Assembly: GCA_016215335.1 (NCBI GenBank)
Contig: JACRKE010000037.1
Span: 2,924 to 66,923, forward strand
From: Candidatus Vogelbacteria bacterium
GTDB taxonomy: Bacteria; Patescibacteriota; Minisyncoccia; Phycocordibacterales; JACRKE01
Length of the DNA: 64,000 nt
Direction: 5' to 3'
Positions 36,626 to 63,453 of this stretch are shown in pieces (positions within the stretch are counted from its first letter, which is position 1; each line of letters begins with the position of its first letter). The notes under the pieces are model-generated. The model was not told where the DNA came from, did no database searches, and saw only the letters and a program-made list of their open reading frames with translations. The position numbers were made by a program, and so were the translations under genes.

Positions 36626-36683
36626 CGTTGAATCTTGAAGCTAGAATAGTGCATTATTCCAGTATCTAGTTTCTATTCTCCAA
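36626..36683 (+). repeat. cassette-boundary repeat copy C (CTTGAAGCTAGAATAGTGCATTATTCCAG)
   Basis: 14 nt after the HepT stop; shares the core AGAATRGYGCATTATTCYAG with A and B. Confidence 0.65.
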
Positions 36684-37428: not shown

Positions 37429-37497
37429 GAGCTAATTAGTATATAGTAAGACCAATCAGTATATAGTATATAGTATATAGTATATAGTATATAGGGG
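37429..37497 (-). promoter_or_regulatory. same upstream motif before yidC, containing a (GTATATA)x5 tandem expansion
   Basis: rc reads TCTCCCCTATATAC(TATATAC)x4...TACTATATACTAATTAGCTC-ATG. Confidence 0.5.
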
Positions 37498-37508
37498 AGA
37501 AAATTCTT

Positions 37509-37865
37509 CTACGGTAAACCAAGTTTTGTGAGCACTCCCTCAATGTCTCGCTTAAGTTCGTCAAAGGTAGCCAAGACGGCGGGTTTTTTGAATATAAACA
37601 TAATGGTATGGCCGTCTTTCAGGTTCGGTAAAAGTCTGGCTACAATCGCACGGGCGCGACGTTTAATAAGATTTCGTCCCACCGCTGTCTTTTCTACAGA
37701 ACTACTGACAACAAAAGCGAACTTGCTTCCTTCGTTTTCTGTCTTCGTACTCTTGACCAAGAAGAGGGGGGAGTGAGTAGTTTGAAAAACTTTTTTCTTC
37801 GCCGGATCAGAACTAAAAAAAACATCGAGCTCATTCCTTCCCGCCCGATTAACCTTTGGTAACAT
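37509..37865 (-). CDS. rnpA: ribonuclease P protein component
   Basis: 118 aa, basic; RNR-like motif region (GRNLIKRRARAIVAR); position between rpmH and yidC. Confidence 0.7.
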   Translation of the reverse strand: MLPKVNRAGRNELDVFFSSDPAKKKVFQTTHSPLFLVKSTKTENEGSKFAFVVSSSVEKTAVGRNLIKRRARAIVARLLPNLKDGHTIMFIFKKPAVLATFDELKRDIEGVLTKLGLP

Positions 37866-37877
37866 AAAAGCGCTGTT

Positions 37878-38012
37878 CTAAACGGCTAATTTTTTGCGGC
37901 CCTTGCGTCTCCTTCGAAGGAGTGTCGCGCGTCCGGCTGCAGTTTTTTGACGCTCGAGAAAACCGTGTGTTGTTTTTCGTTTTTTTCGCTTCGGATTGTA
38001 TGTAAACGACAT
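37878..38012 (-). CDS. rpmH: 50S ribosomal protein L34
   Basis: Not in the ORF track (44 aa). Minus-strand translation [44 protein letters not shown] matches the L34 consensus; divergent from dnaA. Confidence 0.8.
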
Positions 38013-38175
38013 AAAGTTAGTGTATACTATTTGCACTCTGAAGACAAATAGTTTTTATTTCAAAAGTTTTTCGTAAAAAAAGTTAGACACAGGCAATCCA
38101 CAGACTTATGCACACATTTAGGTAGTTTTCCACAGGGGATAGAGGAGTATACTAAGAAAATTCTAACCATAAACT
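38013..38175. promoter_or_regulatory. rpmH-dnaA divergent spacer with DnaA-box-like 9-mers (candidate oriC segment / dnaA promoter)
   Basis: CAATCCACA 38094-38102, TTATGCACA 38106-38114, TTTTCCACA 38126-38134 (consensus TTATCCACA). Confidence 0.5.
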
Positions 38176-39549
38176 ATGCTAGAAAATAAAAAACTTTGGG
38201 ATGACGTGATTTCACAGATAGAGCTCGGAATTTCAAAGGCGAACTTTAGCACTTGGTTTAAAAACACTTATATTTCAAAGCAGGAAGATGGCATGGTGTT
38301 CCTCTCAGTGCCAAACGACTTTGTTAAAGAGTGGATTTGCAACAAATACCACAAATTTATTCTAAAGATTCTAAGGGATACCAACCCCGGTATACGCGGC
38401 GTCGAATATATAATTCACAAAGAGGACGGTTCGGCGAAACGAGTTGATATGGACGCTGAGGCAGCAGAAAATATCTTCGCCAATCAGCTCAAAATGCAAG
38501 AGATCTATATAAACAAGGAGGACAACCTGAATCCTCGCTACACTTTCGACACCTTAATCATTGGATCATTTAACGAATTGGCTCACGCGGCGGCACAAAG
38601 CGTAGTGCGCAAACCGGGCATGTCTTACAATCCCCTATTTATATACGGAGGAACGGGTCTTGGCAAAACTCATCTCATCCAGTCGATCGGAAATGAGATC
38701 AAGAAGGCTGATCCATCCAAAAAAATCTTCTACATGGGTGCCGAGAAATACGCCGTTGATCTCGTTAATTCCATAAACACAAACAAAATGCATGTGTTCA
38801 AAGACAAATACAAAAGATACGACGTCCTAATTCTCGACGATATTCAGTTCATAGCAGGCAAGGAGCGCACCCAAGAAGAGTTTTTCCATCTGTTCAACAG
38901 TTACCACGACAACAACAAACAGATTGTATTCTCCTCCGATAAACCCCCAAAGCATATAAACGAACTCGAAGAGAGACTTCGCTCAAGGTTTGAGGGTGGG
39001 ATGATTGTAGACATTTCAAGGCCGGAATTCGAGGCAAGACTCGCAATATTGAATGCCAAATTAAAACAAGTTGGGGTTTCGCTTGCCGACGAAGTGGTGC
39101 ACTATGTAGCAACATCCATCCAAGACAGCATACGTGAACTTGAAGGCTCGCTTAACTCGATTGTCTGCCAATCACAACTCAAAAAACGGCCACTGACCTT
39201 AAACGAAGTCAAAACATTAATAAAAAACAATGTTAAACCCCAAAGAACCATCTCAACAAAGGATGTAATTCAGACGGTCGCTGGCTTTTACAATATCGAG
39301 GAGAAAATTCTTTATGAAAAGAGCCGGCGGAAGGAGGTTGTAAAGCCGAGGCAAATTGTTATGTATATTTTACGAGAGGATTTCAACACCTCCTATCCAT
39401 ATATCGGCCAAAAGCTGGGCGGACGCGACCACACTACGGTCATGCATGCATACGAGAAGATCAAGCGTGAGTTAAAGACAGATAGATTACTCGAGCAAGA
39501 AATGGAACAGATAAAAAATATGCTCTACAACGAATACAGTACGGTATGA
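38176..39549 (+). CDS. dnaA: chromosomal replication initiator DnaA
   Basis: AAA+ Walker A GGTGLGKTHL, Walker B VLILDDIQF, sensor and box motifs, C-terminal DNA-binding domain (HTTVMHA). Confidence 0.9.
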   Translation: MLENKKLWDDVISQIELGISKANFSTWFKNTYISKQEDGMVFLSVPNDFVKEWICNKYHKFILKILRDTNPGIRGVEYIIHKEDGSAKRVDMDAEAAENIFANQLKMQEIYINKEDNLNPRYTFDTLIIGSFNELAHAAAQSVVRKPGMSYNPLFIYGGTGLGKTHLIQSIGNEIKKADPSKKIFYMGAEKYAVDLVNSINTNKMHVFKDKYKRYDVLILDDIQFIAGKERTQEEFFHLFNSYHDNNKQIVFSSDKPPKHINELEERLRSRFEGGMIVDISRPEFEARLAILNAKLKQVGVSLADEVVHYVATSIQDSIRELEGSLNSIVCQSQLKKRPLTLNEVKTLIKNNVKPQRTISTKDVIQTVAGFYNIEEKILYEKSRRKEVVKPRQIVMYILREDFNTSYPYIGQKLGGRDHTTVMHAYEKIKRELKTDRLLEQEMEQIKNMLYNEYSTV

Positions 39550-39857
39550 ACAGTATAAGTGTATAGTATAAATGCGTATACCTGTGGAAAAGATGTTAGT
39601 AGCACATCGAAATGTGAGGAAAAATCACTGGAGTAACGGGGGAGACGAAGACGGACGAGTGGGATAAAAATTACAGGTGGAATGCGACTGGGGATACAGT
39701 CTTTATAAATAGAGGTTTTATGAATAAGTTATACACATTGGTGATTAGAGAAAGAACGGCTATATATAAAGGTAGAACAAACTAAGTGAAGTGGTTATCA
39801 ACTTATCAACAACTTTAATAATAACAGTAAGCTAATTATTTAAATAGTACAGACACT
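39550..39857. promoter_or_regulatory. dnaA-dnaN spacer with DnaA-box-like 9-mers and AT-rich stretches (candidate oriC)
   Basis: TGTGGAAAA 39583-39591 (rc of TTTTCCACA), TTATACACA 39729-39737, tandem TTATCAACT/TTATCAACA 39795-39812; AT-rich runs tttataaatagaggttttatgaataag and taataataacagtaagctaattatttaaatag. Confidence 0.5.
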
Positions 39858-40973
39858 ATGAAAGTCGAATGCCTAAAAGAAAAACTGAGGACGGCTGCCA
39901 CAAACGCGGAAAGAGTAACCGGCAAGAATTTAGCGTTGCCGATTCTCGGTTCAATTCTTATTGAGGCCAAAGAAAAGACTCTCCTGATCCGTGCCACAAA
40001 TCTTGAGGTGGGAGTTGAATTTGAAATACCTTCAAAAATTTTAGAGAAAGGCAAAGTGGCTGTTTCGGGCTCACTCCTTAATAGTTTTCTTGGGCTGGTT
40101 GGTGACGGTGATGTTATCAAGATTGAGACCGTGAACGAAAACATGGTTCTTACAACCAGATCAAGCTCGTCCATGATTAAGTGTTTACCCTCTGATGACT
40201 TTCCAACTATTCCAAAGCTTGGCGACTCTAATGTCCTAGAATTGGACGCCGTAAAATTGGTAAACGGTCTCCGGTCGGTGGCATACGCGGCTTCGCTTTC
40301 AGACATGAAGCCGGAAATTTCGAGCGTCTACTTGTACGGAGAAGAGGACGAAATTGTTTTTGCGGCGACTGACTCGTTTCGCCTTGCCGAAAAAAGAATC
40401 AAACTTAAAAGCAGAGAACAGAAGGGAGATCAAATATCAATTATCATTCCTATTAAAAACGCGCTCGAAATCATACGTGTGCTCGAAGGCTTGAACGACT
40501 CTGTGTCTATCTACTACACAAAGAACCAGGTGTCGTTTTCGTCCGGTACGGGCGGAATCTACATCACTTCGCGACTGGTGAATGGTATATTCCCGAATTA
40601 CGGGCAGATCATTTCCAAGGATAAAAAAAGCGAAGTGGTCGTATCCAAGAAGGAACTGCTTAACGCTTTGAAACTCGCTACGGTTTTTACCGATAAATTC
40701 AATCAAGTGACATTCCGCATAATACCCGGGGAGGCGCTGTTCGAAGTAAGCTCGAGGAACAGTGACACCGGGGAGAACACAACCAAAGTTGAGGCTACTG
40801 TTGAAGGCGAAGATATCACTGTGAATTTCAACAACAAATATATTCTGGATTGTTTCAGCTCTATAGAAGAAAACACCCTTGGAATCGCGTTTAACGGTGC
40901 CCAGAGACCGATGGTGATAAGGGGGGTCGGGGATACATCATTTTTCTATCTTGTAATGCCTCTGAACCGATAG
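39858..40973 (+). CDS. dnaN: DNA polymerase III beta sliding clamp
   Basis: 371 aa, three-domain clamp pattern, typical N-terminus (MKVECLKEKL...NLALPILGSILIEA), directly downstream of dnaA. Confidence 0.9.
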   Translation: MKVECLKEKLRTAATNAERVTGKNLALPILGSILIEAKEKTLLIRATNLEVGVEFEIPSKILEKGKVAVSGSLLNSFLGLVGDGDVIKIETVNENMVLTTRSSSSMIKCLPSDDFPTIPKLGDSNVLELDAVKLVNGLRSVAYAASLSDMKPEISSVYLYGEEDEIVFAATDSFRLAEKRIKLKSREQKGDQISIIIPIKNALEIIRVLEGLNDSVSIYYTKNQVSFSSGTGGIYITSRLVNGIFPNYGQIISKDKKSEVVVSKKELLNALKLATVFTDKFNQVTFRIIPGEALFEVSSRNSDTGENTTKVEATVEGEDITVNFNNKYILDCFSSIEENTLGIAFNGAQRPMVIRGVGDTSFFYLVMPLNR

Positions 40974-48279: not shown

Positions 48280-49980
48280 CTATTTTCCAACTCCGTACAA
48301 ATCGACCACGCGGTCGAGTTCTTCAACTGATGTTATCCCTTTGAGCACTTTAAGCACTCCGTCTTGGCGCATATCGAGAATGCCTTGAGGTCTTGCCGCT
48401 ACAACAATGTCACGTTCGCTCGGGTTGTTTATAATTGCTGTCTCGACAGCTTTGTTAGAAATAATGGCTTCAAAGAGCCCAATGCGCCCTTTGTAGCCAA
48501 TGCCGTGACACGCCCCGCAAGTTTTACCATCCGCCGGCGGCACCCAAACTTTTTCAACAGTTGGAATTTTCTCCCCGGTTTCCGGCGCGATGCCTGAAAG
48601 AATTGTTTGGATAATTTTCCACTGATCAGCTGATGGTGCGACAGCGACTTTGCAAGTTTGGCAGAGGCGGCGAACCAGACGTTGCGCGATCGAGATACTA
48701 ATGGCTGAAGTAATAACTTTCGGGTTCACGCCAAGGTCAATGAGGCGGGGATAGGAGCCGGCTGCGTCGTTCGTGTGAAGTGTCGAGAACACCAAGTGTC
48801 CGGTAAGCGAGGAGTTTATAGCAATCTTCGCTGTCTCAGTGTCTCTGATTTCGCCAATCATAATTACGTCAGGATCTTGACGCAGTACCGAGCGGAGCCC
48901 TTCGAGGAATGTGTAGCCTTTCTCGTCATTCACCTGCGTCTGTTCGATACCTTTCACGTGGTATTCGATCGGGTCTTCGATTGTAATTATCTTTATCGCA
49001 GGGTCGTTGATTTTTTTCAGGCAGGCGTAGAGCGTTGTTGACTTACCGGATCCCGTTGGTCCTGTCACCAGCACCATGCCATTAGGCTTCAAAATTTCCT
49101 TGTTTAAAATGTCTAGGAGTTTGGAACCGAAGCCCATGTCTTCGAGCGCGATATTGAGTGACGCTGGGTTTAGAATACGGAGCACTATAGATTCTCCGTA
49201 CCCTCCCGGAAGTACGGAAGTACGGATTTCAAAGCTGTCGCTGTCTAAGTTTATTGTCAAACGTCCATCTTGAGCACTCTGCTTAACGTTAAGTTTCAAA
49301 CCGGAAATCAGCTTTACGCGTGAAAGCAACAGTAGATATATTTCCTTTTTGAAATCAGAAATGTCGTGGAGCACGCCGTCCAAACGAAAACGCAAACGCA
49401 CGGTCGTCTCTTGCGGTTCGAAGTGAATATCAGAGGAGTTCACCGCAATCGCACCGGCTAATATAATTTCCAAGATTTTTGAAATTCCTTGCCCCTGCTC
49501 TTTTTCAGAACCGACTATCTCTTCTATGTGTTCCTGTAAGTCTACAACGGTATGAATCTTGTCCATGAAATATTTCAGGTGTTCTGAAGATATCTCAATG
49601 AGGCCCGCCTTGGTGCTTAAAGCGTCAGACACTTCCTTGTACCTATCCCATGCTCGTTTTAGGCTCGCTGGGGACACCATGTACATAGTAACTTTGTAAT
49701 GGTCTCGGCTAAGGTCTTCAAGAATGCCGGGGATAAGTTCTCCGTGAGGCGATAATACTGCGAGGCTTAACTCTTTGCCTTGAAGTTGAAATGCTGCCAC
49801 TTCCGAGCGTCGTGCGAGTTCTTCGTCGATGACTTTAAGCGCGTCGGTATTTATGGAAGTCCTTGAGAGATCAGCATAGATAAGCTTGTATCTGGCAGCG
49901 AGGATCTGTGCCAGCTCCTCGGCCTCTTTGAGCTTGAGATCGTCTATTTTTTTTGTATTCAGTGTGTCGTCGAATGGCAT
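48280..49980 (-). CDS. pilB: type IV pilus / type II secretion assembly ATPase (PilB/GspE family)
   Basis: Walker A LVTGPTGSGKSTTL, GEIRD, tetracysteine motif (CQTC...CGAC). Start taken as the ATG at 49980 (MPFDDT...) directly after the conserved upstream motif; residues upstream of it in the track ORF translate that motif. Confidence 0.85.
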   Translation of the reverse strand: MPFDDTLNTKKIDDLKLKEAEELAQILAARYKLIYADLSRTSINTDALKVIDEELARRSEVAAFQLQGKELSLAVLSPHGELIPGILEDLSRDHYKVTMYMVSPASLKRAWDRYKEVSDALSTKAGLIEISSEHLKYFMDKIHTVVDLQEHIEEIVGSEKEQGQGISKILEIILAGAIAVNSSDIHFEPQETTVRLRFRLDGVLHDISDFKKEIYLLLLSRVKLISGLKLNVKQSAQDGRLTINLDSDSFEIRTSVLPGGYGESIVLRILNPASLNIALEDMGFGSKLLDILNKEILKPNGMVLVTGPTGSGKSTTLYACLKKINDPAIKIITIEDPIEYHVKGIEQTQVNDEKGYTFLEGLRSVLRQDPDVIMIGEIRDTETAKIAINSSLTGHLVFSTLHTNDAAGSYPRLIDLGVNPKVITSAISISIAQRLVRRLCQTCKVAVAPSADQWKIIQTILSGIAPETGEKIPTVEKVWVPPADGKTCGACHGIGYKGRIGLFEAIISNKAVETAIINNPSERDIVVAARPQGILDMRQDGVLKVLKGITSVEELDRVVDLYGVGK

Positions 49981-50020
49981 ACGAATTAGTATATAGTAAA
50001 TAGCATATGGTATGTAGGGG
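49981..50020 (-). promoter_or_regulatory. same upstream motif before pilB
   Basis: rc reads TTCCCCTACATACCATATGCTATTTACTATATACTAATTCGT-ATG. Confidence 0.5.
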
Positions 50021-50036
50021 AATACACACATGTCAG

Positions 50037-50150
50037 GAATTTTCAACTTACAATTTTGCAGTTTTCAATAAATTTTTAATTTTCAAATCTTGAATTGCGC
50101 GTGGTTTTATAACTTTACGCTGAAAATTGAAAATCGAGCCTTGAAAATTT
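50037..50150. promoter_or_regulatory. cluster of three direct and three inverted copies of ATTTTCAA in the pilB / 50223 divergent promoter region
   Basis: gaattttcaa 50037-46, gttttcaa 50061-68, aattttcaa 50078-86; inverted tgaaaattgaaaat 50121-34 and ttgaaaattt 50141-50; TTGACA-N17-TAGCAT about 50 nt upstream of 50223. Confidence 0.4.
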
Positions 50151-50222: not shown

Positions 50223-51035
50223 ATGCCCCAAAAATACAAACTTTTAAGTTTCGTAACAGCAGTTTTGATGCTTGTTTCCTTCGTGCGCGTAGCAGAGGCC
50301 GGAACACCTGCTTGTGGAACGTATGATCCTTCGTATGGTTACGGAGATTGCTCTACTAATCCCTCGACCGTTACCGGTACAAATAATGCAGGAATCAATA
50401 ACACTAATCGTACCGTTACCTACGACAATACCTACTACAACAATTCAAGTAACGTAATAGGAAATTTGCCTTGGGGCACGAGCAATAGTTCGTCTAATAC
50501 TACAAACACGGTATATACTCCATCAAACTATACGACTGTTACGTATTCACCAGCTCCAGCCTATGCCCCAGTAGCGAATTACGGTACTCCTAATTATGCG
50601 CCTTCTTACGGCAATATTCCTTACGGCGGGTATATGCCAACCTACAATTATGCTCCAAGTTATAACGACGGATACGGCTATAACTACGGGTACAACAATC
50701 ATAACTACTCAAACAATTCGGGCGGTAGCGACGCGCTGGATTGGATCTACGCGATTGGTTCACTTGCGAATATTTTCGGAGGTGGCAATTCGGGATATGG
50801 CGGAGGTTATGGTGGCTATGATGATTACGGTTATGGAGGCGGTTACGATGATTATGCCTACAACGGTGGTTATGATTATAATGACAGCTATTACGGTGGC
50901 TATGATGATTACGGTTATGGTGGCGGTTCAAGCTGGGATAACTATACAACGGACTATGGCACCTCTTGGAACTATGGCGGGGGATCGTCCTGGGATGACT
51001 ATACAACGGACTACGGCACTGGCTGGAACTACTAA
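50223..51035 (+). CDS. secreted Tyr/Gly/Asn-rich low-complexity repeat protein
   Basis: Signal peptide (LLSFVTAVLMLVSFVRVAEA); repeats YGYGGGYDDY and SWDDYTTDYGT. Confidence 0.45.
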   Translation: MPQKYKLLSFVTAVLMLVSFVRVAEAGTPACGTYDPSYGYGDCSTNPSTVTGTNNAGINNTNRTVTYDNTYYNNSSNVIGNLPWGTSNSSSNTTNTVYTPSNYTTVTYSPAPAYAPVANYGTPNYAPSYGNIPYGGYMPTYNYAPSYNDGYGYNYGYNNHNYSNNSGGSDALDWIYAIGSLANIFGGGNSGYGGGYGGYDDYGYGGGYDDYAYNGGYDYNDSYYGGYDDYGYGGGSSWDNYTTDYGTSWNYGGGSSWDDYTTDYGTGWNY

Positions 51036-51086
51036 ATAAATTGCGACACGATGGGTATTGACATAGTATTACTGGTGTGGTAGGGT

Positions 51087-51902
51087 ATGATTATGAAAAA
51101 TATATACATCAAAATAGCCTTATTTGTAAGCATAATTCTCGCACCCGTGGTTTCTTCGGCGAGCAATATGCTTGATCCATATCCGATAAACGCGAATGAC
51201 AATCGTTCTGTTTATAACGCATCAGTAACAACATCTCTTGCACTTGCAGGGCGTAATCAAAATCAGGTTTATACAACCATACCCGCAGTTACTCAACCCG
51301 CGCAAGTTACAATACCGGCTCAGACAATGTACACTACGAATACAGTACAAAATACAACACAGCCCGCAGCAGTTTATACTAATTACAGTAATCTATCAGC
51401 AAATTCAGGTATTCAAACTTATGTAGGCGTAGGAACAAATAACAATAGTTACGCGAACAACAATTACACTGTCGCACAGACAGCACAGCCTGTTTACGCA
51501 AACTACACAAACATTACACAGCCGAACACTGCTTCAAACAGTTGGACGTACAACCTTCCAAATCAGTCACTTGTGCCTGCATCAGTGGCGGGGAATCAGT
51601 ACGCTTTTTCTAATCAGAATCTCGTCGCCATGGATACGAGCTATAAATATAGTTACGCAAATTCTCTCCCAAGTTATTACGGAGCAGGTGCGACGAGTGG
51701 TGTGTACACAGTGTACGGAGGACAGAACTACGATGCCTCGAACATTTACAACAGGGGCTTAGCTCTCGCTACCGGCACAACTCACAATACAAACAGACCG
51801 AATATGTCAGGAGTATCATCGGGCGATTGGGTCCAAACCTCCGGGCTAGCAAACTCCAATCAGTATTCGAACAGGAGAGTGTCAGGGCATTTGCCTTGGT
51901 AA
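51087..51902 (+). CDS. secreted Asn/Thr/Gln/Tyr-rich low-complexity protein
   Basis: Signal peptide (IALFVSIILAPVVSSA); NYT / QPA-type repeats. Confidence 0.45.
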   Translation: MIMKNIYIKIALFVSIILAPVVSSASNMLDPYPINANDNRSVYNASVTTSLALAGRNQNQVYTTIPAVTQPAQVTIPAQTMYTTNTVQNTTQPAAVYTNYSNLSANSGIQTYVGVGTNNNSYANNNYTVAQTAQPVYANYTNITQPNTASNSWTYNLPNQSLVPASVAGNQYAFSNQNLVAMDTSYKYSYANSLPSYYGAGATSGVYTVYGGQNYDASNIYNRGLALATGTTHNTNRPNMSGVSSGDWVQTSGLANSNQYSNRRVSGHLPW

Positions 51903-52118
51903 AAGACTCCACTCGCACCCTTTTCTGGGTACGGATATTTTCTTGCTAGAAAATTCCTCGTGCTCGCGCCGTCGCGCTCCCAAGTCCCAGAAAAGGGTGC
52001 GAGTTCCGTCATTGCTTATTTCAAAACATCAAAAAACTGTCTTCTGGGCAGTTTTTTGATGTTTTGAAATGGGCTTATCCACATCTAAAACTTGCAAATA
52101 GACAGGGGGGTTTGTTGC

Positions 52119-52148
52119 TTGACAGTTGTCAGCTAAATGTTATACAAT
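52119..52148 (+). promoter_or_regulatory. consensus sigma70-type promoter (TTGACA-N16-TATACAAT) with an operator-like palindrome TGACAGTTGTCA over the -35
   Basis: Read directly; 68 nt upstream of the SD/ATG of the GC-rich island gene. Confidence 0.5.
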
Positions 52149-52215
52149 AGGCTTGGAAAACTAACTAATTTTGGCCGATGAAACGGCCACGACATCGAGC
52201 TCTAGGAGGGCCACG

Positions 52216-53367
52216 ATGAAGTATCTTGAGAACCTTTTCAAACTATTTGTTCTGGTTTGTATTTCCGTGAGTTCGGCTGGTGCGGATTGCCATCCGGGCC
52301 ATGTTGGCAGTGCGGGCTCGACGTCTTCGACATCGAGCCCGAGGATCGTATCCGCCGCGAAACATAAAGCGGCGCGCCAACACAGGTCGGCCCCGAGATC
52401 GCGGGTGACGGAGGCGCCCGTGGAAGCCCCTGAAGCTGTTATGCACCGCTTCTCTCGGACAAGTTTCCACGTCAGAGACGAGTCGAGTGCTGGCACCGCG
52501 GCTCGCATGATTCGCGACTGGCTTGCGGGCAAGAGCTCGTCGAGTCCAATGCGGGCGGGTGTGACTCGTGAAGAGTACGCTGAAGCGCTCGGCTGCTCTT
52601 CGCCCGAAGAGGCAGCGCAGAAGGTGGCTGGCATGCACCTATACCACGTTGACATAACTATTACCCAGGATCTTTTCGAAATGGCCTACTTGGCCGCAGA
52701 CGAGAGGGTCCACTGGGCAAGTTATCGGTCAATGCCGGAGGGGACGTGGGCCTTGTTCGACAAGGAGTCGTCCATCGGGATTGACCTTGGCGACGAGCAC
52801 GACCCAAAGCGAGGGGGGTGCTTCAACCCTTTCCGGTTCCATCCGGAGGAGGTCGAGCATCAGGAACCGCCACCTGAGCACATGCACGTCGCCAAGGGCA
52901 ACATGCCGACTCAGTGTCGGCAGCGATGCTCGGAGGGCTTCATGTCTGCTCCGCCACGCCGGGTGCAGATTCGAGAAGCTCGACCACGCTACGCATCGGC
53001 GACCTATCGGCAGCCGCCTCCAAGGTTCGTGATGCGGCCGCAGTTCAAGCGGCGGCAGTTCAGGCAGTACAGGCCGCATCAGTACCGCGGTCCGCACTTC
53101 CGCCAGGCGCCGCCGCAGATGGTGCGTACGCGCCGTGGTCCGCCCCAGCCGGGACCTCAATGGCGCGGCGTTCCACGAAGTCCGGTCTATATTCCACCCC
53201 AGGCTCGTGGCGGACCGATGAACCCCTACAGCCAGCCGTTCAATCCGGTACCCCGGTCTGGCGGTGGACCGACGAACCCTTACGGTCAGCCATTCCAAGG
53301 TCTGTCTCGAGGTGGTGGGCCGGCGAGTCCTGGCGGAGGGTTCAACCCTCTGCCACGGAACTACTAG
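52216..53367 (+). CDS. exported Pro/Arg/Gln/Gly-rich protein encoded in a GC-rich island
   Basis: First in-frame ATG, preceded by AGGAGG at 52204-52209; signal peptide (LFKLFVLVCISVSSAGA); C-terminal third consists of RGGPxNPYxQPF-type repeats; local GC far above window average. Confidence 0.45.
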   Translation: MKYLENLFKLFVLVCISVSSAGADCHPGHVGSAGSTSSTSSPRIVSAAKHKAARQHRSAPRSRVTEAPVEAPEAVMHRFSRTSFHVRDESSAGTAARMIRDWLAGKSSSSPMRAGVTREEYAEALGCSSPEEAAQKVAGMHLYHVDITITQDLFEMAYLAADERVHWASYRSMPEGTWALFDKESSIGIDLGDEHDPKRGGCFNPFRFHPEEVEHQEPPPEHMHVAKGNMPTQCRQRCSEGFMSAPPRRVQIREARPRYASATYRQPPPRFVMRPQFKRRQFRQYRPHQYRGPHFRQAPPQMVRTRRGPPQPGPQWRGVPRSPVYIPPQARGGPMNPYSQPFNPVPRSGGGPTNPYGQPFQGLSRGGGPASPGGGFNPLPRNY

Positions 53368-53405
53368 AGAACCAGAACAAGAAGTACCCGAACTATCCCA
53401 AAACA

Positions 53406-53443
53406 AGAAGCCTTGCTTCCTAATGCATTTGGAAGCAAGGCTT
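53406..53443 (+). terminator. strong hairpin after the GC-island gene
   Basis: gaagccttgcttcc-taatgcattt-ggaagcaaggcttc, 14-bp perfect stem, then aaagcctgttt. Confidence 0.5.
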
Positions 53444-53767
53444 CAAAGCCTGTTTGGCGGATAGTCCGGGCCAAACCCAAGGGCGGCGAGCACTTGCTCG
53501 CGGGTTTCAGTGGAAGGAGGACGATATGACAGCGAGAGAGCGCATGTCCCGCCCGACTTCCACTCTCTCATTAAGTTGTTGACTAAGGCTTAAAGTAAGC
53601 ATAGCCTAGTCGAGAACTTATAAGAGAATTCAACAGGACATATACAATTTCGTCTTTACGAAGCAATCGGGCCATGGCGGTCCATGGGTCTCAATTGCTT
53701 CGCGTTAGCTCGCAAAGACGTCCAAATTGTGAATCCTTCGAGCATATTAATGAGTAATTTAAACATT

Positions 53768-56700
53768 ATGAAAATAGATAAAATCTTTAACAAGCGAGCC
53801 ATCGCGCTCTTCACGTTTCTGTTTTCAATAATATTGCCACTTCAAGCGAGTGCATATGCCGCCATGAATACGGATCCGCAGGATTACCCGACAGTGGCAG
53901 TAGTTAATGTTCGCACTAACCCTGTTCCGTCACAAACTGTATGGAGCACATCTGAAACCGCGCGACCTGGTGACCCCATGAATGTCCGTATCTATTTTCA
54001 CACTGACAATGCATCCACCGAGCCGGCTCGTCAGGTACGCGCCAGGATTCAGATGCCAACTGGCAACTCGACCCAGTTCACAATTTCTGGAAGCGTTGGT
54101 GGAACAAACACTAATCTTTCGACTGGTCAATCAACTATTACACTAAACCCCGCCGAACAGCAGCATATTATAATCCGACCGAATTCAGTGAAGTGGTTCC
54201 CAACTCAAGCATCGATACAAGCCAACCAACCTGCTCCATTTCCTAATGGTCAGACAGGAGATGAAATTTTCACAAGCGGTGGAGTACTACTCGGTGATGT
54301 TCCTGGTGGGTGGCCGAATCAAGGCGCGATAGTCGCTGATTTTTGGATCAGTAATGACGCGCCCGTAGCGCCCGTTGTTACAACCAATCCCGCAACCAAC
54401 GTGACCGTGAGTTCAGCAACACTGAATGGTAATGTCACAACGAACGGTGCCCCAGGAATGACCGCATGGTTTGATTGGGGGACTGACCAAAACAACCTTT
54501 CGAATCGCACTCAAGTCATTTCGACATCGGGCGGCGTCTATTCGGCAAACTTGAACGGACTTTCCTCAAACACAACTTATTACTTTAGAGCATCCGGCAA
54601 GGCATCAGATTCAGTGCAAATTTTCAGCGGTGCTACATTGAATTTCACCACAGGTAATAACCCCGCATCAGTCTGTCCAGCAGTGACTACCTCGCCGGCA
54701 ACATCCGTCACTCAAACTTCCGCAACTATTGGGGGGTCAATAACCGGAACTTCGGGTTCGACTGTTACTCGTTGGTTTGATCTTGGTAATTCGCCTTCAA
54801 ATTTAGGACAATTTACTCAAGAGATTCCAGCAAATGTCGATGGATCAGTTTCGCAAAATCTTTTCAACCTTCAACCAAATCAGATCTATTATTACAGATT
54901 AGTTGCAAGAACATCTAATCTTTCATGTCCGGGTGCCGTGAACGGTATTATATTGGGGAACGCTTTGAACTTCACAACGGGAGCGCAAGCACAGGGCATA
55001 AGCGCCACCACAAATCCGGCAACTTCGGTAACTCAGGCTTCAGCAACCCTAAACGGTGCCACTACCTTGAACGGTAACACCAATGTTACGCGATGGTTCG
55101 AATGGGGCCCAACTCAAGGACTTGGTGTGCTTACAGCGCCACAGAATGCTTCGGACTCGAACTATCAGGACGCGATCGGCAATCTAAGCCCAAATACAAC
55201 TTACTATTTCCAAGCTGTTGCGAGAACACAAACAGGTCAAGTGGCGAGAGGTGTCATACTGCCGTTCGCTACACAGGGTACGGTTAATAGTTGTCCCACG
55301 ATAACAACTTTATCGGCTACCAACTTAACCATAAACGGTGCCACATTGAACGCGACTGTTTCGGGTATTACTGGCATTGGCCCAGGCATGTGGTTTGAAT
55401 ACGGCCCAACAACAAGCTACGGTTACACCACAACCATACAAGCTCCGCAGAATGGTCAGAACCAAGCTTTCGCCGGAAATCTGACCCCCGGCCAGACGTA
55501 TTTCTTCCGTGCCATTCTGCAAGCACCTAACTGTGCAGTTACAAATGGAGGTCAGATGTCATTTACACTTGGGCAACAAGCACAAAATCTTTCCGTTACA
55601 ACTCAATCTGCTACGAATGTAACGGTGAGTTCTGCGACGTTGAACGGTTACCTAACCGCATCGAACTATTCGAACGTCACAAGGTGGTTTGAGTGGGGCA
55701 CGAACTCTTCATACGGCAATCGCACAAACACCCAGTCCGCTTATTCCGCCGGAAATTTTAGCGATTACATTTCCGGACTTTCGCAGAACACTACTTATTT
55801 CTTTAGGGCAGTGGCACAAGATGGCAACGGGAATGTCGCCTACGGTTCACAGCTTAACTTCACCACTCCATCATCTGGCGGTAGCGCTAACTTCTATAGT
55901 TGTCCTAACTACACCATAGGAACGCTTACGGCTTCTCCAATTGATTCAACTTCCGCATACTTGAGAGGAGTTGTGAATTCAAACAGTTCGAGTGGTTATA
56001 GTTACACAACATGGATTGAATACGGTCCGACAACTTCCTACGGCATGTCCACAACTCGTCAATATAATTCTGGAGGCACATTTACCCAGTTAGTAGCAAA
56101 TCTTCAGCCCGGAGTGATTTATTATTACAGGGCAGTGGCCCAGGTTGAGAATAACGGTTACTCCGGGGGTTACTTCAACAGTTTCTTCTGCGGTTATCAG
56201 AACATCCAGTATGGAAATTCACTTACAGTGAGCACCCAAAGTCAGACGTTCGTTCCTTATGTACAGCCGGTGATTCAGCCGCAGCCTGTAATTATTCAAC
56301 AGCAAATTACGCAAAGCGTAATTACCCAACCTGCAACATCAATAACTCAAACCGCTGCCAGAGTGAATGGTGTTGCGACAATTAGTAATGTTCCCACAAA
56401 TGGATGGTTTGAGTGGGGTACGAGCGTTAACCTTGGCAGTCAGACCAACCCAGCGGATCTTGGTAACTACTCTTCAAATACTTTCTACGCGAACTTAAAC
56501 AGTTTGCAGCCAGGACAGACCTACTATTTCAGAGCGGTTATTCAAAACAAGCAAAACGGTAATACCTTAAAAGGCGACGTACTCTCGTTCCGCACCCTTA
56601 CTCCGGTTTACGTTCCACCTGTTTACGATTACACGCCACCGGTTAAACCAAGTACCGCTCCAGTAAAATTAACGATTGCAAAGGAGGCTCAAAATATCTC

Positions 56701-57628
56701 TTCTCCAAATGGAGGTATTGGATGTTCAGACGCTGTGACTGCAAAAGCAGGAAACACAATCGCGTACTACATAACAGTAAAAAATAGCGGAGGGGTAGAG
56801 GCAAATGGTGTCTTGGTTAAAGATGTAATGCCTGATTTCCTACGGTTTAGAGCTGGAAGTGATAATGCCAGATATGATGAGTCATCGAGAGAAGTTTCTT
56901 GGAATATCGACCTTCGCGCCGGTGAGACAAAGCAGCTGCAGGTTCAAGCATTAGTCGACCGCGTAACAGAGAATAAGACAGTAAAGAATACAGCATCAAT
57001 AACTTACGGCTCAACGGTAAAGCGCTCAGGTACTCCATGTTTGATAATCATGGTGGACCCCGTAACTCTCGTGTTGTCACCCGACAAAAACTCCGTAAAC
57101 GCTGGTGACACTCTTACGTACACTGTAATCTACAGAAATAGTAGTGGTGCAAAGATAAGTTCCGCTGTACTTCGAGTATTGCTTCCTGCGGACACGACAC
57201 TCATTTCTGCGGAAAAGGGAACGATTTCTTCATCTGACGGCACGATCGTTCTAACCGTTGGCGACATGCAGCCAAAAGAGGAGGGAAGATTTAGAATTAC
57301 AGTCAAGATTGGTAATACTGCAGCGGCAGGGTCAACTTTGACTGCGGTACTTGTAATGGATTATCGCGATGCTGTCGGGCAGGAACAGGCTGAAGCGCAC
57401 AGTTTTGTACCAGTATTAATCGGAGGTTCAGCTGCGACTCAGATTCTCGACTCATCCATGGAAAAACAAGGAACGGGTCTCGGAGCTCTGTTCGGTACGG
57501 GTTTCTTGCCTCAGACCTTGATTGGTTGGCTCGTGCTCATTGTGATTTTACTCGCTCTCTACTTCATTGGACGTAAGATTTTGAATCCGAATGCTGGAGT
57601 AAGTAAAACAGACGTAATCGTTAAATAA
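53768..57628 (+). CDS. giant surface protein with ~10 tandem Fn3-like ~100-aa repeats, DUF11-like repeat region and C-terminal LPxTx-like sorting signal
   Basis: Signal peptide (MKIDKIF...ILPLQASAYA). Recurrent WF(E/D)WG...Y...L.PNTTYYFRAVA.....G motif at least 8 times. C-terminus ...GFLPQTLIGWLVLIVILLALYFIGRK (LPQTL + hydrophobic + basic). Start could also be 53750 or 53684. Confidence 0.6.
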   Translation: MKIDKIFNKRAIALFTFLFSIILPLQASAYAAMNTDPQDYPTVAVVNVRTNPVPSQTVWSTSETARPGDPMNVRIYFHTDNASTEPARQVRARIQMPTGNSTQFTISGSVGGTNTNLSTGQSTITLNPAEQQHIIIRPNSVKWFPTQASIQANQPAPFPNGQTGDEIFTSGGVLLGDVPGGWPNQGAIVADFWISNDAPVAPVVTTNPATNVTVSSATLNGNVTTNGAPGMTAWFDWGTDQNNLSNRTQVISTSGGVYSANLNGLSSNTTYYFRASGKASDSVQIFSGATLNFTTGNNPASVCPAVTTSPATSVTQTSATIGGSITGTSGSTVTRWFDLGNSPSNLGQFTQEIPANVDGSVSQNLFNLQPNQIYYYRLVARTSNLSCPGAVNGIILGNALNFTTGAQAQGISATTNPATSVTQASATLNGATTLNGNTNVTRWFEWGPTQGLGVLTAPQNASDSNYQDAIGNLSPNTTYYFQAVARTQTGQVARGVILPFATQGTVNSCPTITTLSATNLTINGATLNATVSGITGIGPGMWFEYGPTTSYGYTTTIQAPQNGQNQAFAGNLTPGQTYFFRAILQAPNCAVTNGGQMSFTLGQQAQNLSVTTQSATNVTVSSATLNGYLTASNYSNVTRWFEWGTNSSYGNRTNTQSAYSAGNFSDYISGLSQNTTYFFRAVAQDGNGNVAYGSQLNFTTPSSGGSANFYSCPNYTIGTLTASPIDSTSAYLRGVVNSNSSSGYSYTTWIEYGPTTSYGMSTTRQYNSGGTFTQLVANLQPGVIYYYRAVAQVENNGYSGGYFNSFFCGYQNIQYGNSLTVSTQSQTFVPYVQPVIQPQPVIIQQQITQSVITQPATSITQTAARVNGVATISNVPTNGWFEWGTSVNLGSQTNPADLGNYSSNTFYANLNSLQPGQTYYFRAVIQNKQNGNTLKGDVLSFRTLTPVYVPPVYDYTPPVKPSTAPVKLTIAKEAQNISSPNGGIGCSDAVTAKAGNTIAYYITVKNSGGVEANGVLVKDVMPDFLRFRAGSDNARYDESSREVSWNIDLRAGETKQLQVQALVDRVTENKTVKNTASITYGSTVKRSGTPCLIIMVDPVTLVLSPDKNSVNAGDTLTYTVIYRNSSGAKISSAVLRVLLPADTTLISAEKGTISSSDGTIVLTVGDMQPKEEGRFRITVKIGNTAAAGSTLTAVLVMDYRDAVGQEQAEAHSFVPVLIGGSAATQILDSSMEKQGTGLGALFGTGFLPQTLIGWLVLIVILLALYFIGRKILNPNAGVSKTDVIVK

Positions 57629-62634: not shown

Positions 62635-62648
62635 GTAAATTTAATTTG

Positions 62649-62721
62649 TCCGCCCACCTGGATTCGAACCAGGGACCACTTCCTTAAAAGGGAATTGCTC
62701 TACCAACTGAGCTATGGGCGG
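62649..62721 (-). tRNA. tRNA-Lys (anticodon UUU)
   Basis: Minus-strand cloverleaf: acceptor CCGCCCA/TGGGCGG; D-arm GCTC-AGTTGGTA-GAGC; anticodon loop CTTTTAA (U33, UUU, A37); T-arm CCTGG-TTCGAAT-CCAGG; discriminator A; CCA not encoded. Confidence 0.85.
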
Positions 62722-62773
62722 GAATAACAAACTAGTCAGAAAACAATACCAGAAAGTTACACTTAAGTCTATA

Positions 62774-62798
62774 CACTTGGAAGCCGAGCTTCCAAGTG
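62774..62798. repeat. REP-like palindrome copy, inverted orientation (CACTTGGAAG-CCGAG-CTTCCAAGTG)
   Basis: Same core, with loop CCGAG (the reverse complement of the CTCGG loop of the other copies); 14 nt upstream of the HUH transposase start. Confidence 0.8.
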
Positions 62799-62811
62799 AT
62801 ATGATTAAATT

Positions 62812-63453
62812 ATGAGAAACTTAGATTTTGTGGAGGGCGAATATTACCATATTTACAATCGGGGCACTGACAAAAGGTCGATTGTTGAGGATGCTTATGA
62901 TTCCAATCGTTTTGTTCAGTGCCTTAAGGAGTTGAATGTAAAGGACCCGATTGGTAGTATGTTTGAAAATTCATTTAGGAATAAAGACACATCATCAGAA
63001 CCGCTTGTTGATATCGTATGCTATTGTCTGAATCCTAATCACTACCATTTACTTCTTAGCCCTCACGTTGAAAATGGAATAGAAAAGTTCATGCATAGAC
63101 TCGGGACCGCACATACCAAATATTATAACAATAGACACAAGAGAAATGGAGTCTTGTTTCAGGGCAAGTTTAAGGCGGTATATGTAGCGGATAATGACTA
63201 TTTGCTACACGTTAGTTCGTATGTGAATATTAATGATAGGGTACACCAACTTGGAAGCTCGGCTTCCAAGTTGGTGAGATCGAGCTGGGATGAGTATGTT
63301 CTGAACAAGACTGGATTTTGTGTTAAGGATGTTGTTTTGGGTCAATTTAAAAATCCGAATGAGTACAAGAAGTTTGCGGAGGATTCCTTGAGTTCAATGT
63401 TAGACAGCAAGAAAGAACAACGGGAGCTGGATAATTTTGAGTTTGACGTATAG
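62812..63453 (+). CDS. HUH/Y1 single-strand DNA transposase (IS200/IS605 TnpA- or RAYT-like)
   Basis: YCLNPNHYHLLLSP (HuH motif in IS200-typical context) and a downstream Tyr-rich catalytic segment QGKFKAVYVADNDYLLHVSSYVNIN. The ORF continues through an internal REP-like palindrome, so the functional protein may end near 63240. Confidence 0.65.
   Translation: MRNLDFVEGEYYHIYNRGTDKRSIVEDAYDSNRFVQCLKELNVKDPIGSMFENSFRNKDTSSEPLVDIVCYCLNPNHYHLLLSPHVENGIEKFMHRLGTAHTKYYNNRHKRNGVLFQGKFKAVYVADNDYLLHVSSYVNINDRVHQLGSSASKLVRSSWDEYVLNKTGFCVKDVVLGQFKNPNEYKKFAEDSLSSMLDSKKEQRELDNFEFDV
63244..63276. repeat. REP-like palindrome copy inside the transposase ORF (CACCAACTTGGAAGC-TCGG-CTTCCAAGTTGGTG)
   Basis: 14-bp perfect stem; reads in frame as HQLGSSASKLV. 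Confidence 0.75.

What the first reader, a model, noticed from the sequence alone, without database searches (positions are those of the whole stretch)
53768..57628. 1287-aa surface protein built from ~10 tandem Fn3-like repeats with a C-terminal LPQTL-hydrophobic-basic tail (sortase-type sorting signal candidate)
The repeat WFEWG...Y...L.PNTTYYFRAVA....G recurs every ~95-110 aa, followed by a DUF11-like block.

The protein ends ...GFLPQTLIGWLVLIVILLALYFIGRKILNP. This has the LPxTG-like / TM / positive-charge layout of sortase substrates.

This suggests covalent cell-wall anchoring of an adhesin.
Basis: partly seen in the sequence, partly recalled or inferred. Interest (0 to 1): 0.5.

Follow-up and report, generated by a model that had tools for sequence, protein, structure and literature searches.

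The report
Membrane-anchored fibrillar surface protein, not sortase
This is a real, long surface protein of an uncultivated Candidatus Vogelbacteria (CPR) bacterium, built as a chain of ten beta-sandwich domains. Its conserved tail looks like an ordinary membrane anchor with its own signature (PxTLxGW), not a sortase LPXTG cell-wall signal.

Summary
The ORF is real: 53768-57628 (+), 1286 aa, GenBank MBI5138863.1 "DUF11 domain-containing protein", Candidatus Vogelbacteria.

**Architecture**
- Sec signal peptide.
- Conserved N-terminal beta-sandwich.
- 7 (not ~10) WF[ED]WG...TYYFRAV Fn3-like repeats.
- 2 DUF11/CLIPPER domains.
- A short disordered linker.
- A C-terminal tail, FGTGFLPQTLIGW + 14 hydrophobic residues + RK, followed by 16 more residues.

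**The tail is a genuine homology domain.**
- I collected 15 tails from related CPR proteins.
- They score 37-70 bits against a tail HMM. The next best of 2,490 ORFs scores 7 bits.

**What is conserved is not LPxTG.**
- G-W is invariant.
- P, T/S and the following L are near-invariant.
- The residue after T is always L or I, never G.
- The "L" before P is as often F.
- AlphaFold starts the membrane helix directly after the T.

**Other evidence against sortase**
- Pfam and NCBIfam sorting-signal models do not match.
- No sortase lies in the window or in the flanks of 12 related loci.
- All carriers share the same Fn3-like repeat.
- The gene is syntenic (PilB ... gene - TsaE - PolA) in many genomes.

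**Best reading:** a type I membrane-anchored stalk or adhesin-like envelope protein. A new processed sorting signal is not excluded.

The parts
53768..57628 (+). Whole gene: 1286-aa surface protein (alternative upstream ATG at 53684 gives 1314 aa)
   Evidence: ORF list. Exact product is on record as MBI5138863.1, 'DUF11 domain-containing protein', Candidatus Vogelbacteria. The 1314-aa form is in Logan SRR12113407.
53768..53860 (+). Sec-type signal peptide (residues 1-31, ...LQASAYA)
   Evidence: Basic n-region, hydrophobic core at residues 10-32, AxA cleavage motif. Orthologues P0046 and P0142 start with equivalent signal peptides. Read from the sequence; no predictor was run.
53861..54355 (+). 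Conserved N-terminal (membrane-distal) beta-sandwich domain, residues 32-196, family unknown
   Evidence: 39% identical to the N-termini of P0046 and P0142, with 43 invariant columns. AF2 model is a beta-sandwich, pLDDT 62.9, pTM 0.64. No Pfam or NCBIfam hit. No significant PDB fold match; best E=0.13.
54356..56596 (+). Seven Fn3-like repeats with the WF[ED]WG...TYYFRAV signature. Nucleotide ranges: 54356-54655, 54662-54958, 54983-55276, 55280-55570, 55574-55867, 55901-56194, 56297-56596. A Q/V/I/P-rich linker at 56195-56296 separates repeats 6 and 7.
   Evidence: Repeat HMM finds 7 copies at 115-128 bits. Pfam: Pur_ac_phosph_N 55 bits, PhoD_N 44 bits, fn3 26.9 bits, all above their cut-offs. 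Pairwise identity 22-53%. No DNA tandem repeat.
56729..57007 (+). DUF11/CLIPPER domain 1 (residues 988-1080). K972, D1019 and N1074 are invariant in four orthologues and are candidates for an isopeptide triad.
   Evidence: PF01345 at 70.9 bits in 2 stretches, TIGR01451 at 49.5 bits. Invariant columns K15, D62, N117 of alignment A6. The Lys-Asp-Asn triad of CLIPPER domains is described in PMC12617251. Bond formation was not tested.
57083..57355 (+). DUF11/CLIPPER domain 2 (residues 1106-1196)
   Evidence: Second PF01345 stretch, with weak DUF7927 and MG2 hits over the same residues. AF2 beta-sandwich with block-mean pLDDT 79-91 across most of the domain. The first-strand Lys is not conserved: K in the window protein, R in P0046.
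57431..57502 (+). Short disordered linker, including the G-rich lead-in (..KQGTGLGALFGTG) of the tail domain
   Evidence: AF2 pLDDT below 50 for model residues 265-291, which are protein residues 1222-1248.
57467..57586 (+). Conserved C-terminal tail domain (residues 1234-1273). Consensus: [FL]FGxGF[LF]PxTL[IL]GW + 14 hydrophobic + R[KR]x[YL].
   Evidence: Tail HMM scores 56.8 bits here and 37-70 bits in 14 other genes; the next best ORF scores 7.2 bits. No known sorting-signal model matches.
57503..57529 (+). Signature motif F-L-P-Q-T-L-I-G-W (residues 1246-1254).
   Evidence: Position confirmed. G and W are invariant (15/15), P is 14/15, T/S is 14/15, and the next residue is L 14 / I 1.
57518..57583 (+). 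Predicted transmembrane helix L1251-L1272
   Evidence: AF2 helix at model residues 294-315. Kyte-Doolittle 19-residue means up to 2.64. The W-to-first-basic distance is exactly 15 in 11 of 15 tails.
57572..57625 (+). Cytoplasmic tail RKILNPNAGVSKTDVIVK (18 aa); stop codon at 57626-57628
   Evidence: Translation. In homologues this part is 4-30 aa long.

Best explanation
The gene encodes a type I membrane protein that stands on the surface of a Candidatus Vogelbacteria (Paceibacteria, CPR) cell.

**Shown**
- It has an N-terminal Sec signal peptide.
- Ten beta-sandwich modules follow in series: a conserved distal domain, 7 Fn3-like repeats and 2 DUF11/CLIPPER domains.
- A roughly 25-residue flexible linker comes next.
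- It ends in a roughly 35-residue conserved tail whose core is a predicted membrane helix.

**Inferred**
- After export the signal peptide is removed.
- The tail stays in the cytoplasmic membrane as a stop-transfer anchor. P-x-T caps the helix at the outer interface, G-W sits in the interfacial aromatic belt, and R-K-x-Y lies at the inner face.
- The rod of domains, roughly 35-40 nm if extended, crosses the wall or surface layer and presents the conserved N-terminal domain outward.
- The protein therefore acts as a stalk, spacer or adhesin-like envelope component, held non-covalently by its own helix and not by sortase.
- Conservation of residues on both faces of the membrane suggests the helix also contacts a conserved membrane partner.
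For: - **Domain assignments:**
- **C-terminal model:** AF2 gives two beta-sandwiches, a disordered linker and a helix at 1251-1272.
- **Fold search of that model:** it returns integrin alpha-chain legs (Ig-like calf domains followed by a TM helix) and MSCRAMM adhesins such as SdrD, FnBPA and ClfA, at E about 1e-10 to 1e-7.
- **Tail conservation:** invariant G-W, fixed 14-residue spacing to R, conserved [RK][RK]x[YL] on the cytoplasmic side, and variable 4-30 aa cytoplasmic extensions.
- **No known sorting signal:** no LPXTG or other sorting-signal HMM match.
- **No neighbouring processing enzyme:** no sortase or other candidate next to the gene in the window or 12 loci.
- **Carriers are one family:** all 13 tail-bearing proteins that could be checked (the other two are C-terminal fragments) carry the same Fn3-like repeat, 1-7 copies. 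The tail therefore behaves as part of one protein family and not as a portable signal.
- **Synteny:** the gene lies in a housekeeping context (RuvC-YebC-RuvB-PilB-...-gene-TsaE-PolA) in Vogelbacteria, Nomurabacteria and other Paceibacterota genomes. This argues for a vertically inherited envelope component.
- **Literature:** CLIPPER/DUF11 domains typically form stalks of fibrillar adhesins (PMC12617251).
Against: - A plain anchor normally conserves only hydrophobicity. Here a specific extracellular-face motif (FGxGF[LF]PxTLxGW) is kept across distant relatives, which is what recognition signals look like.
- The tripartite layout is the same as in LPXTG, PEP-CTERM and GlyGly-CTERM signals (PMC3237569).
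- The hydrophobic core after W is short, at 14 residues.
- No experiment or proteomic data bear on whether the C-terminus is retained.
- The function of the distal domain is unknown.
- Only flanks of the relatives' genes, not whole genomes, could be inspected.
Confidence: 0.55

Rival explanations
1. The tail is a new, CPR-specific C-terminal sorting signal ('PxTLxGW-CTERM'). A dedicated, still unidentified membrane enzyme would cleave near the motif and transfer the protein to a wall or lipid acceptor, or release it. Candidates are a rhomboid-like, exosortase/archaeosortase-like or divergent sortase enzyme. This would be analogous to PEP-CTERM/exosortase, PGF-CTERM/archaeosortase or GlyGly-CTERM/rhombosortase.
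For: - The tripartite layout (motif, TM, basic) is as defined for such signals (PMC3237569).
- The motif on the outer face is strongly conserved, with a fixed register to the basic residues, in 15 tails from several CPR lineages.
- The lead-in is Gly-rich and G-W sits at the helix start.
- No existing Pfam or NCBIfam model covers it.
- Two tail-bearing paralogues lie side by side in L003, L011 and L012.
Against: - All carriers found belong to one family, the WFEWG Fn3-like repeat proteins. [quoted passage not shown]
- Genomes with one or two targets usually have the enzyme next door, but no such neighbour is conserved here. The neighbours are TsaE, PolA, HolA-like, RluF-like, RuvA, Fpg and SpoU.
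- Cytoplasmic extensions of up to 30 aa with a conserved RKxY are unusual for a discarded signal.
Confidence: 0.27
2. One reading: LPQTL is a variant LPxTG motif. A sortase would cleave after the Thr and link the protein covalently to peptidoglycan.
For: - The window protein reads L-P-Q-T followed by a hydrophobic stretch and R-K.
- CPR bacteria have a Gram-positive-like envelope, and a sortase family is detected in more than half of CPR genomes (PMC6744442).
- Other DUF11 proteins from the exhaustive search do end in canonical LPxTG signals (6 of 150).
Against: - The Gly (or other small residue) after Thr is absent in all 15 tails; it is always L or I. The Leu before Pro is replaced by F or T in 7 of 15, and one tail lacks P and T altogether (GMFGMGLIGW).
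- The invariant residues G-W lie outside the pentapeptide.
- No spacer separates the motif from the helix. The helix is predicted to start at the residue after T.
- No LPXTG HMM match.
- No sortase signature or Pfam sortase in the window or the flanks of 12 loci.
- No canonical LPxTG substrate among 1,009 ORFs of at least 80 aa in the held sequence.
- The sortase family is only 'patchily detected' in CPR groups other than Microgenomates.
Confidence: 0.08
3. The protein is the main surface-layer or envelope scaffold of these cells rather than an adhesin. In this reading it is a conserved, single-locus, membrane-anchored stalk, like archaeal S-layer stalk proteins.
For: - It is conserved at one syntenic housekeeping locus across Paceibacteria genomes.
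- The distal domain is conserved.
- Secreted low-complexity proteins always sit between it and a PilB-like ATPase.
Against: - There is no expression or abundance data.
- Repeat number varies from 1 to 7 between relatives.
- There is no S-layer homology domain, and no evidence of lattice formation.
Confidence: 0.1

Closest known systems
LPXTG sortase sorting signal (Pfam Gram_pos_anchor PF00746 / TIGR01167)
   Same: C-terminal location. Order is motif, then hydrophobic segment, then basic residues. The window copy literally contains L-P-x-T. The passenger is a multi-domain surface protein with DUF11 domains, as in some Gram-positive LPXTG proteins.
   Different: There is no Gly or other small residue after Thr in any of 15 tails. 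L and even P/T are replaceable. The invariant residues are G-W, 3-4 positions downstream. The motif is fused to the helix. The cytoplasmic part is longer, at 4-30 aa. There is no HMM match and no sortase nearby.
Tripartite C-terminal sorting domains served by non-sortase enzymes: PEP-CTERM/exosortase, PGF-CTERM/archaeosortase A, GlyGly-CTERM/rhombosortase (Haft and Varghese 2011, PMC3237569)
   Same: The signature motif lies directly at the outer end of a TM helix, followed by basic residues. The lead-in is Gly-rich. The domain is lineage-restricted.
   Different: The signature is different (PxTLxGW). The tail has been found only on one protein family, 1-2 copies per locus. No co-located or co-distributed enzyme has been identified. 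No match to the existing models.
Fibrillar adhesins with CLIPPER (DUF11) stalks (PMC12617251)
   Same: Signal peptide, tandem Ig-like stalk domains including 2 CLIPPER domains, a distinct distal domain and a C-terminal anchoring element. Domain 1 keeps a Lys/Asp/Asn set at the expected places.
   Different: The stalk is mainly an Fn3-like repeat with a WFEWG signature. The anchor is a TM tail, not LPXTG, OmpA-like or T9SS. The distal domain matches no known adhesive domain. The gene is a syntenic core gene, not a variable accessory adhesin.
Type I membrane receptors with Ig-like legs, e.g. the integrin alpha chain (calf-1/calf-2 + TM helix)
   Same: Best fold matches of the C-terminal model: two beta-sandwiches followed by a single TM helix and a short cytoplasmic tail with a conserved juxtamembrane motif.
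   Different: About 10% sequence identity. This is an architectural analogy only; no homology is claimed.

Membership tests
LPXTG sortase substrate | Conserved L-P-x-T-G pentapeptide (or a class variant with a small residue after the scissile Thr) | tested here: not met
   Over 15 homologous tails the position after T/S is L 14, I 1. The position before P is L 8, F 6, T 1. One tail lacks both P and T.
LPXTG sortase substrate | Match to the curated sorting-signal models (PF00746, TIGR01167) | tested here: not met
   There is no hit for the whole protein at E<=1. There is also none for the isolated tail or 11 homologous tails at E<=10. HMMER filters may hide very weak matches.
LPXTG sortase substrate | Hydrophobic segment followed by a basic C-terminal end | tested here: met
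   Hydrophobic segment 1251-1268, then R1269 and K1270. However, 16 further residues follow, and homologues carry 4-30 aa after the membrane segment.
LPXTG sortase substrate | A sortase (PF04203) encoded in the same genome | not testable with these tools
   None in the 64-kb window or in the flanks of relatives. The rest of the genome was not available. The literature reports sortase as patchy in non-Microgenomates CPR.
Haft-type C-terminal sorting domain (PEP-CTERM / GlyGly-CTERM / PGF-CTERM kind) | Tripartite architecture: signature motif, TM helix, basic cluster near the C-terminus | tested here: met
   FGxGF[LF]PxTLxGW, then 14 hydrophobic residues, then R[KR]. Definition taken from PMC3237569.
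Haft-type C-terminal sorting domain (PEP-CTERM / GlyGly-CTERM / PGF-CTERM kind) | Shared by several proteins of one genome that are homologous only in the tail | tested here: not met
   All 13 tail-bearing proteins that could be checked carry the WFEWG Fn3-like repeat (the other two are C-terminal fragments). There are at most 2 per locus and one in this 64-kb window. The sample is small, and database-wide tail searches failed for technical reasons.
Haft-type C-terminal sorting domain (PEP-CTERM / GlyGly-CTERM / PGF-CTERM kind) | A dedicated processing enzyme that is co-distributed with the tail, and adjacent when there is a single target | tested here: inconclusive
   No conserved candidate neighbour was found; the conserved neighbours are housekeeping genes. 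Genome-wide co-distribution could not be computed.
Fn3-like domain (Pfam fn3 PF00041 / Pur_ac_phosph_N PF16656 / PhoD_N PF16655) | Score above the curated cut-off | tested here: met
   PF16656 scores 55.0 bits (cut-off 30), PF16655 44.3 (30) and PF00041 26.9 (25). There are seven copies by self-HMM.
DUF11 / CLIPPER (PF01345, TIGR01451) | Score above the curated cut-off | tested here: met
   PF01345 scores 70.9 bits (cut-off 24.6) in 2 stretches. TIGR01451 scores 49.5 bits (cut-off 24).
DUF11 / CLIPPER (PF01345, TIGR01451) | Lys-Asp-Asn intramolecular isopeptide triad | tested here: inconclusive
   Domain 1: K972, D1019 and N1074 are invariant in 4 orthologues at positions like those described in PMC12617251. 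Geometry was not checked. Domain 2: the Lys is not conserved.
Fibrillar adhesin | A recognisable adhesive (ligand-binding) domain at the distal end | tested here: inconclusive
   The N-terminal domain is conserved. It has no Pfam or NCBIfam hit and no significant fold match. Model confidence is only moderate.

The most novel reading that the evidence does not exclude
The roughly 35-residue tail (FGxGF[LF]PxTLxGW - 14 hydrophobic - R[KR]x[YL]) is an undescribed Paceibacteria/CPR-specific C-terminal sorting domain. It would be recognised by an unidentified membrane enzyme or partner. In this reading, the conserved syntenic protein is a principal envelope or surface-layer stalk of these ultrasmall bacteria, whose envelope architecture is still unresolved.
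Probability: 0.22. Interest if true: 0.6.

Novelty: new member of a known kind. Interest (0 to 1): 0.3.

Why it matters
How CPR/Patescibacteria build and decorate their envelope, and how they attach to hosts, is largely unknown. This gene is a conserved, syntenic surface protein of Paceibacteria. Its anchoring tail is covered by no existing model.

Correcting "sortase substrate" to "TM-anchored, distinct PxTLxGW tail" avoids a wrong annotation. It also gives a concrete HMM-able motif for surveying CPR surface proteins. If the tail proved to be a processed signal, it would point to a new sorting system. If not, this is an ordinary membrane-anchored stalk protein.

Tried and rejected
- **Word-indexed protein searches.** I queried with the C-terminal 332 aa, the tail alignment A1 and the motif plus upstream alignment A3. 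They returned 2, 5 and 2 hits and missed even the self-match, so tail distribution could not be measured this way.
- **Exhaustive HMMER search with the C-terminal 332 aa.** It gave 9,037 hits dominated by giant multi-DUF11 proteins of other phyla. Only 4 of the top 150 carry the tail.
- **Metagenome scan.** It had to use a narrow pattern, [FL][FL]P[TQS]TLIGW. This gave 52 pattern matches and 3 confirmed loci, all the same small Fn3 + S/T-linker + tail protein.
- **N-terminal domain.** The fold search against PDB found nothing significant. A PDB sequence search with the DUF11 region found nothing at E<=0.01.
- **Upstream intergenic region 53423-53683.** I suspected an RNA, but there is no Rfam family and folding is no better than shuffles (z=-1.1).
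- **Recent repeat expansion or strain slippage.** Rejected: TRF finds nothing and repeats are only 22-53% identical.
- **Neighbouring ORFs as a processing enzyme.** The roughly 230-aa ORF directly downstream in L002, L006, L007 and L009 reads, by my own inspection of the sequence, as an RluF/RsuA-like pseudouridine synthase. The other conserved neighbours are RuvA, Fpg, SpoU and uracil-DNA glycosylase-like.
- **Literature.** No paper links CPR with exosortase, archaeosortase or rhombosortase, or describes this tail.

Full report
**1. What is in the sequence**

An ORF runs on the + strand to a stop at 57626-57628. It starts at ATG 53768 (1286 aa) or at an upstream in-frame ATG at 53684 (1314 aa). 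The 1286-aa product is on record as GenBank MBI5138863.1, [quoted passage not shown], from an 88.5-kb contig. The 1314-aa form was called on a Logan contig.

Residues 1-31 make a Sec-type signal peptide (basic n-region, hydrophobic core, ASAYA). Orthologues begin with equivalent signal peptides, so 53768 is the likelier start.

The window context is a CPR/Patescibacteria chromosome.
- *Genes confirmed by Pfam:* a PilB-like ATPase, TsaE, a class A PBP and a T4SS-like cluster.
- *Genes I read directly from the translations, with several matched by the Pfam lists of syntenic relatives:* dnaA/dnaN, RuvC, YebC, RuvB and PolA.

**2. Domain anatomy**

- **Fn3-like repeats.**
  - WF[ED][WYL]G occurs at residues 234, 336, 443, 542, 640, 749 and 880.
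  - An HMM of the repeat finds seven copies at 115-128 bits and nothing else.
  - Pfam places them with Fn3-like domains: Pur_ac_phosph_N 55 bits, PhoD_N 44 bits, fn3 26.9 bits.
  - Copies are 22-53% identical and there is no DNA-level tandem repeat, so the array is old.
- **N-terminal domain.** Upstream of the repeats lies a roughly 165-aa domain. It is conserved in orthologues (43 invariant columns) and predicted to be a beta-sandwich with moderate confidence. It has no family or fold match.
- **DUF11 domains.** Downstream are two DUF11 domains (PF01345 70.9 bits; TIGR01451 49.5 bits). DUF11 was recently renamed CLIPPER and shown to be a CnaA-like, often isopeptide-bonded stalk domain of fibrillar adhesins (PMC12617251). 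Domain 1 keeps K972, D1019 and N1074 invariant in four orthologues. Domain 2 does not keep the Lys.
- **Linker and helix.** An AF2 model of the last 329 residues gives two beta-sandwiches, a disordered stretch (1222-1248) and one helix at 1251-1272. Its best fold matches are integrin alpha legs with their TM helix and staphylococcal MSCRAMM adhesins.

**3. The tail**

The protein ends ...GLGALFGTGFLPQTLIGWLVLIVILLALYFIGRKILNPNAGVSKTDVIVK.

I collected homologous tails from several sources:
- species-representative genomes (loci L002-L009);
- the exhaustive HMMER search (P0046, P0142, P0146);
- the word-indexed search (P0153, P0154);
- metagenomes (L011-L013).

An HMM of the tail scores 37-70 bits on these genes (15 distinct tails counting P0146, P0153 and P0154). 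It scores at most 7.2 bits on every other ORF of at least 50 aa (2,490 ORFs) in the window and 16 loci. Those ORFs include about a dozen other proteins with C-terminal hydrophobic ends. So the tail is a true homology domain.

Column counts over the 15 tails:

| Position | Residues |
|---|---|
| G-W | 15/15 invariant |
| P | 14/15 |
| T/S | 14/15 |
| Residue after T/S | L 14, I 1 |
| Residue before P | L 8, F 6, T 1 |
| W to first basic residue | exactly 15 in 11/15 |
| Cytoplasmic start | [RK][RK]x[YL] |
| Part after the membrane segment | 4-30 aa |

One tail (P0154) reads GMFGMGLIGW, with neither P nor T.

**4. Why this is not a sortase signal**

From my own knowledge of the enzyme classes, sortases cleave after the Thr of LPxTG or its class variants, and the next residue is small (G, A, N or S). 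Here it is always L or I, and the model puts it as the first residue of the membrane helix. The constrained residues are G-W, which lie outside the pentapeptide.

- **Models.** No LPXTG model, or any other sorting-signal model, matches the protein or 11 isolated tails.
- **Sortase genes.** A TLxTC-type search and the Pfam lists of neighbouring genes show no sortase in the window or beside the gene in 12 other loci.
- **Other substrates.** No canonical LPxTG substrate occurs among 1,009 ORFs of at least 80 aa in the held sequence.
- **Literature.** A sortase family occurs in more than half of CPR genomes but only patchily outside Microgenomates (PMC6744442).

**5. Is it another kind of sorting signal?**

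The layout fits the tripartite definition used for PEP-CTERM and GlyGly-CTERM (PMC3237569), and the outer-face motif is more conserved than a simple anchor needs. Two defining properties were not found.

- **The tail is not spread over unrelated proteins.** Every carrier that could be checked has the WFEWG Fn3-like repeat, 1-7 copies. There are one or two carriers per locus.
- **No candidate enzyme is a conserved neighbour.** The gene sits in a conserved housekeeping neighbourhood: DnaN-PBP1A-TyrRS-RuvC-YebC-RuvB-PilB-(small secreted ORFs)-gene-TsaE-PolA-HolA-like. This holds in Vogelbacteria, Nomurabacteria and other Paceibacterota genomes.

The long, variable cytoplasmic extensions with a conserved RKxY also fit a retained anchor better than a discarded signal. 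My sample is small, and the database-wide tail searches failed technically. This rival therefore keeps appreciable weight.

**6. Most likely mechanism**

- **Shown:** signal peptide, ten beta-sandwich modules, flexible linker, one C-terminal helix with basic residues after it, family-wide conservation and synteny.
- **Inferred:**
  - Export is by Sec, and the tail acts as a stop-transfer anchor, giving a type I membrane protein.
  - A rod of roughly 35-40 nm crosses the wall or surface layer and displays the conserved distal domain.
  - PxT caps the helix and GW sits at the interface.
  - Residues conserved on both membrane faces possibly contact a conserved membrane partner.
  - The function is adhesion, host contact or envelope scaffolding.
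- **Confidence:** retained TM anchor 0.55, new processed signal 0.27, canonical sortase 0.08. The envelope-scaffold reading (0.10) concerns function rather than anchoring and is rated independently, so it may coexist with any of the three.

**7. Novelty and verdict**

The protein is a new member of a known kind: a fibrillar, Ig-like-repeat surface protein with CLIPPER stalk domains. GenBank already annotates it generically.

Its tail is an unmodelled, lineage-specific C-terminal domain worth an HMM. There is no positive evidence that it is processed. Taxon labels of some ENA MAGs ("Saccharibacteria") may be unreliable, because their flanks share synteny with the Paceibacteria loci.

Interest is modest at 0.3. 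The sortase interpretation should be dropped. The surface-protein observation stands, with corrections: 7 repeats, and a longer C-terminus than quoted.

Noticed in passing
window 7669-36000: A type IV secretion-like gene cluster. It includes a VirD4/TraG-type coupling ATPase (7669-10074, -) and a VirB4/TraG P-loop ATPase (30228-32084, +). It also holds an 819-aa polytopic membrane protein (25888-28347), a 1241-aa secreted protein (22161-25886) and several coiled-coil or unknown ORFs with no Pfam hit.
   Followed up: partly
window 50223-53367: Three secreted low-complexity ORFs sit between the PilB-like ATPase (48280-50046, -) and the target. They are a Y/G/N-rich 270-aa ORF, an N/T/Q/Y-rich 271-aa ORF, and a P/R/Q/G-rich ~385-aa ORF that lies in a 2-kb stretch (52001-54000) at 55% GC in a ~45% GC window. 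None has a Pfam hit. Relatives have 1-5 unannotated small ORFs at the same place.
   Followed up: partly
window 62648-63453; L016 2875-3534: An IS200-like Y1 transposase (PF01797, 36.8 bits) lies next to tRNA-Lys(ttt). A Y1_Tnp gene also sits beside PBP1A in the related locus L016.
   Followed up: no
window 36673-40973: yidC (-), dnaA (38176-39549) and dnaN (39858-40973) lie together, so the replication origin probably falls around 37.5-38.2 kb. These assignments come from reading the translations and from synteny in L016.
   Followed up: no
L003 5511-9217; L011 6565-10695; L012 6640-11070: Some relatives carry two tail-bearing paralogues side by side. One is a small ~275-aa protein with a signal peptide, one Fn3-like repeat, a ~90-aa S/T-rich linker and the tail. 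The other is a large multi-repeat protein. In L003 a P/G-rich ORF lies between them.
   Followed up: partly
L004, L008, L017, L018 (contig ends): Contigs of related genomes often end inside this gene, and P0153 and P0154 are C-terminal fragments. The divergent internal repeats probably break assemblies, so repeat counts in MAGs may be underestimates.
   Followed up: no
window 53423-53683: A 260-nt GC-rich intergenic region lies upstream of the gene, with a hairpin (~53410-53445) that looks like the terminator of the preceding ORF. It has no Rfam match, and its folding energy is no better than shuffled sequence.
   Followed up: yes
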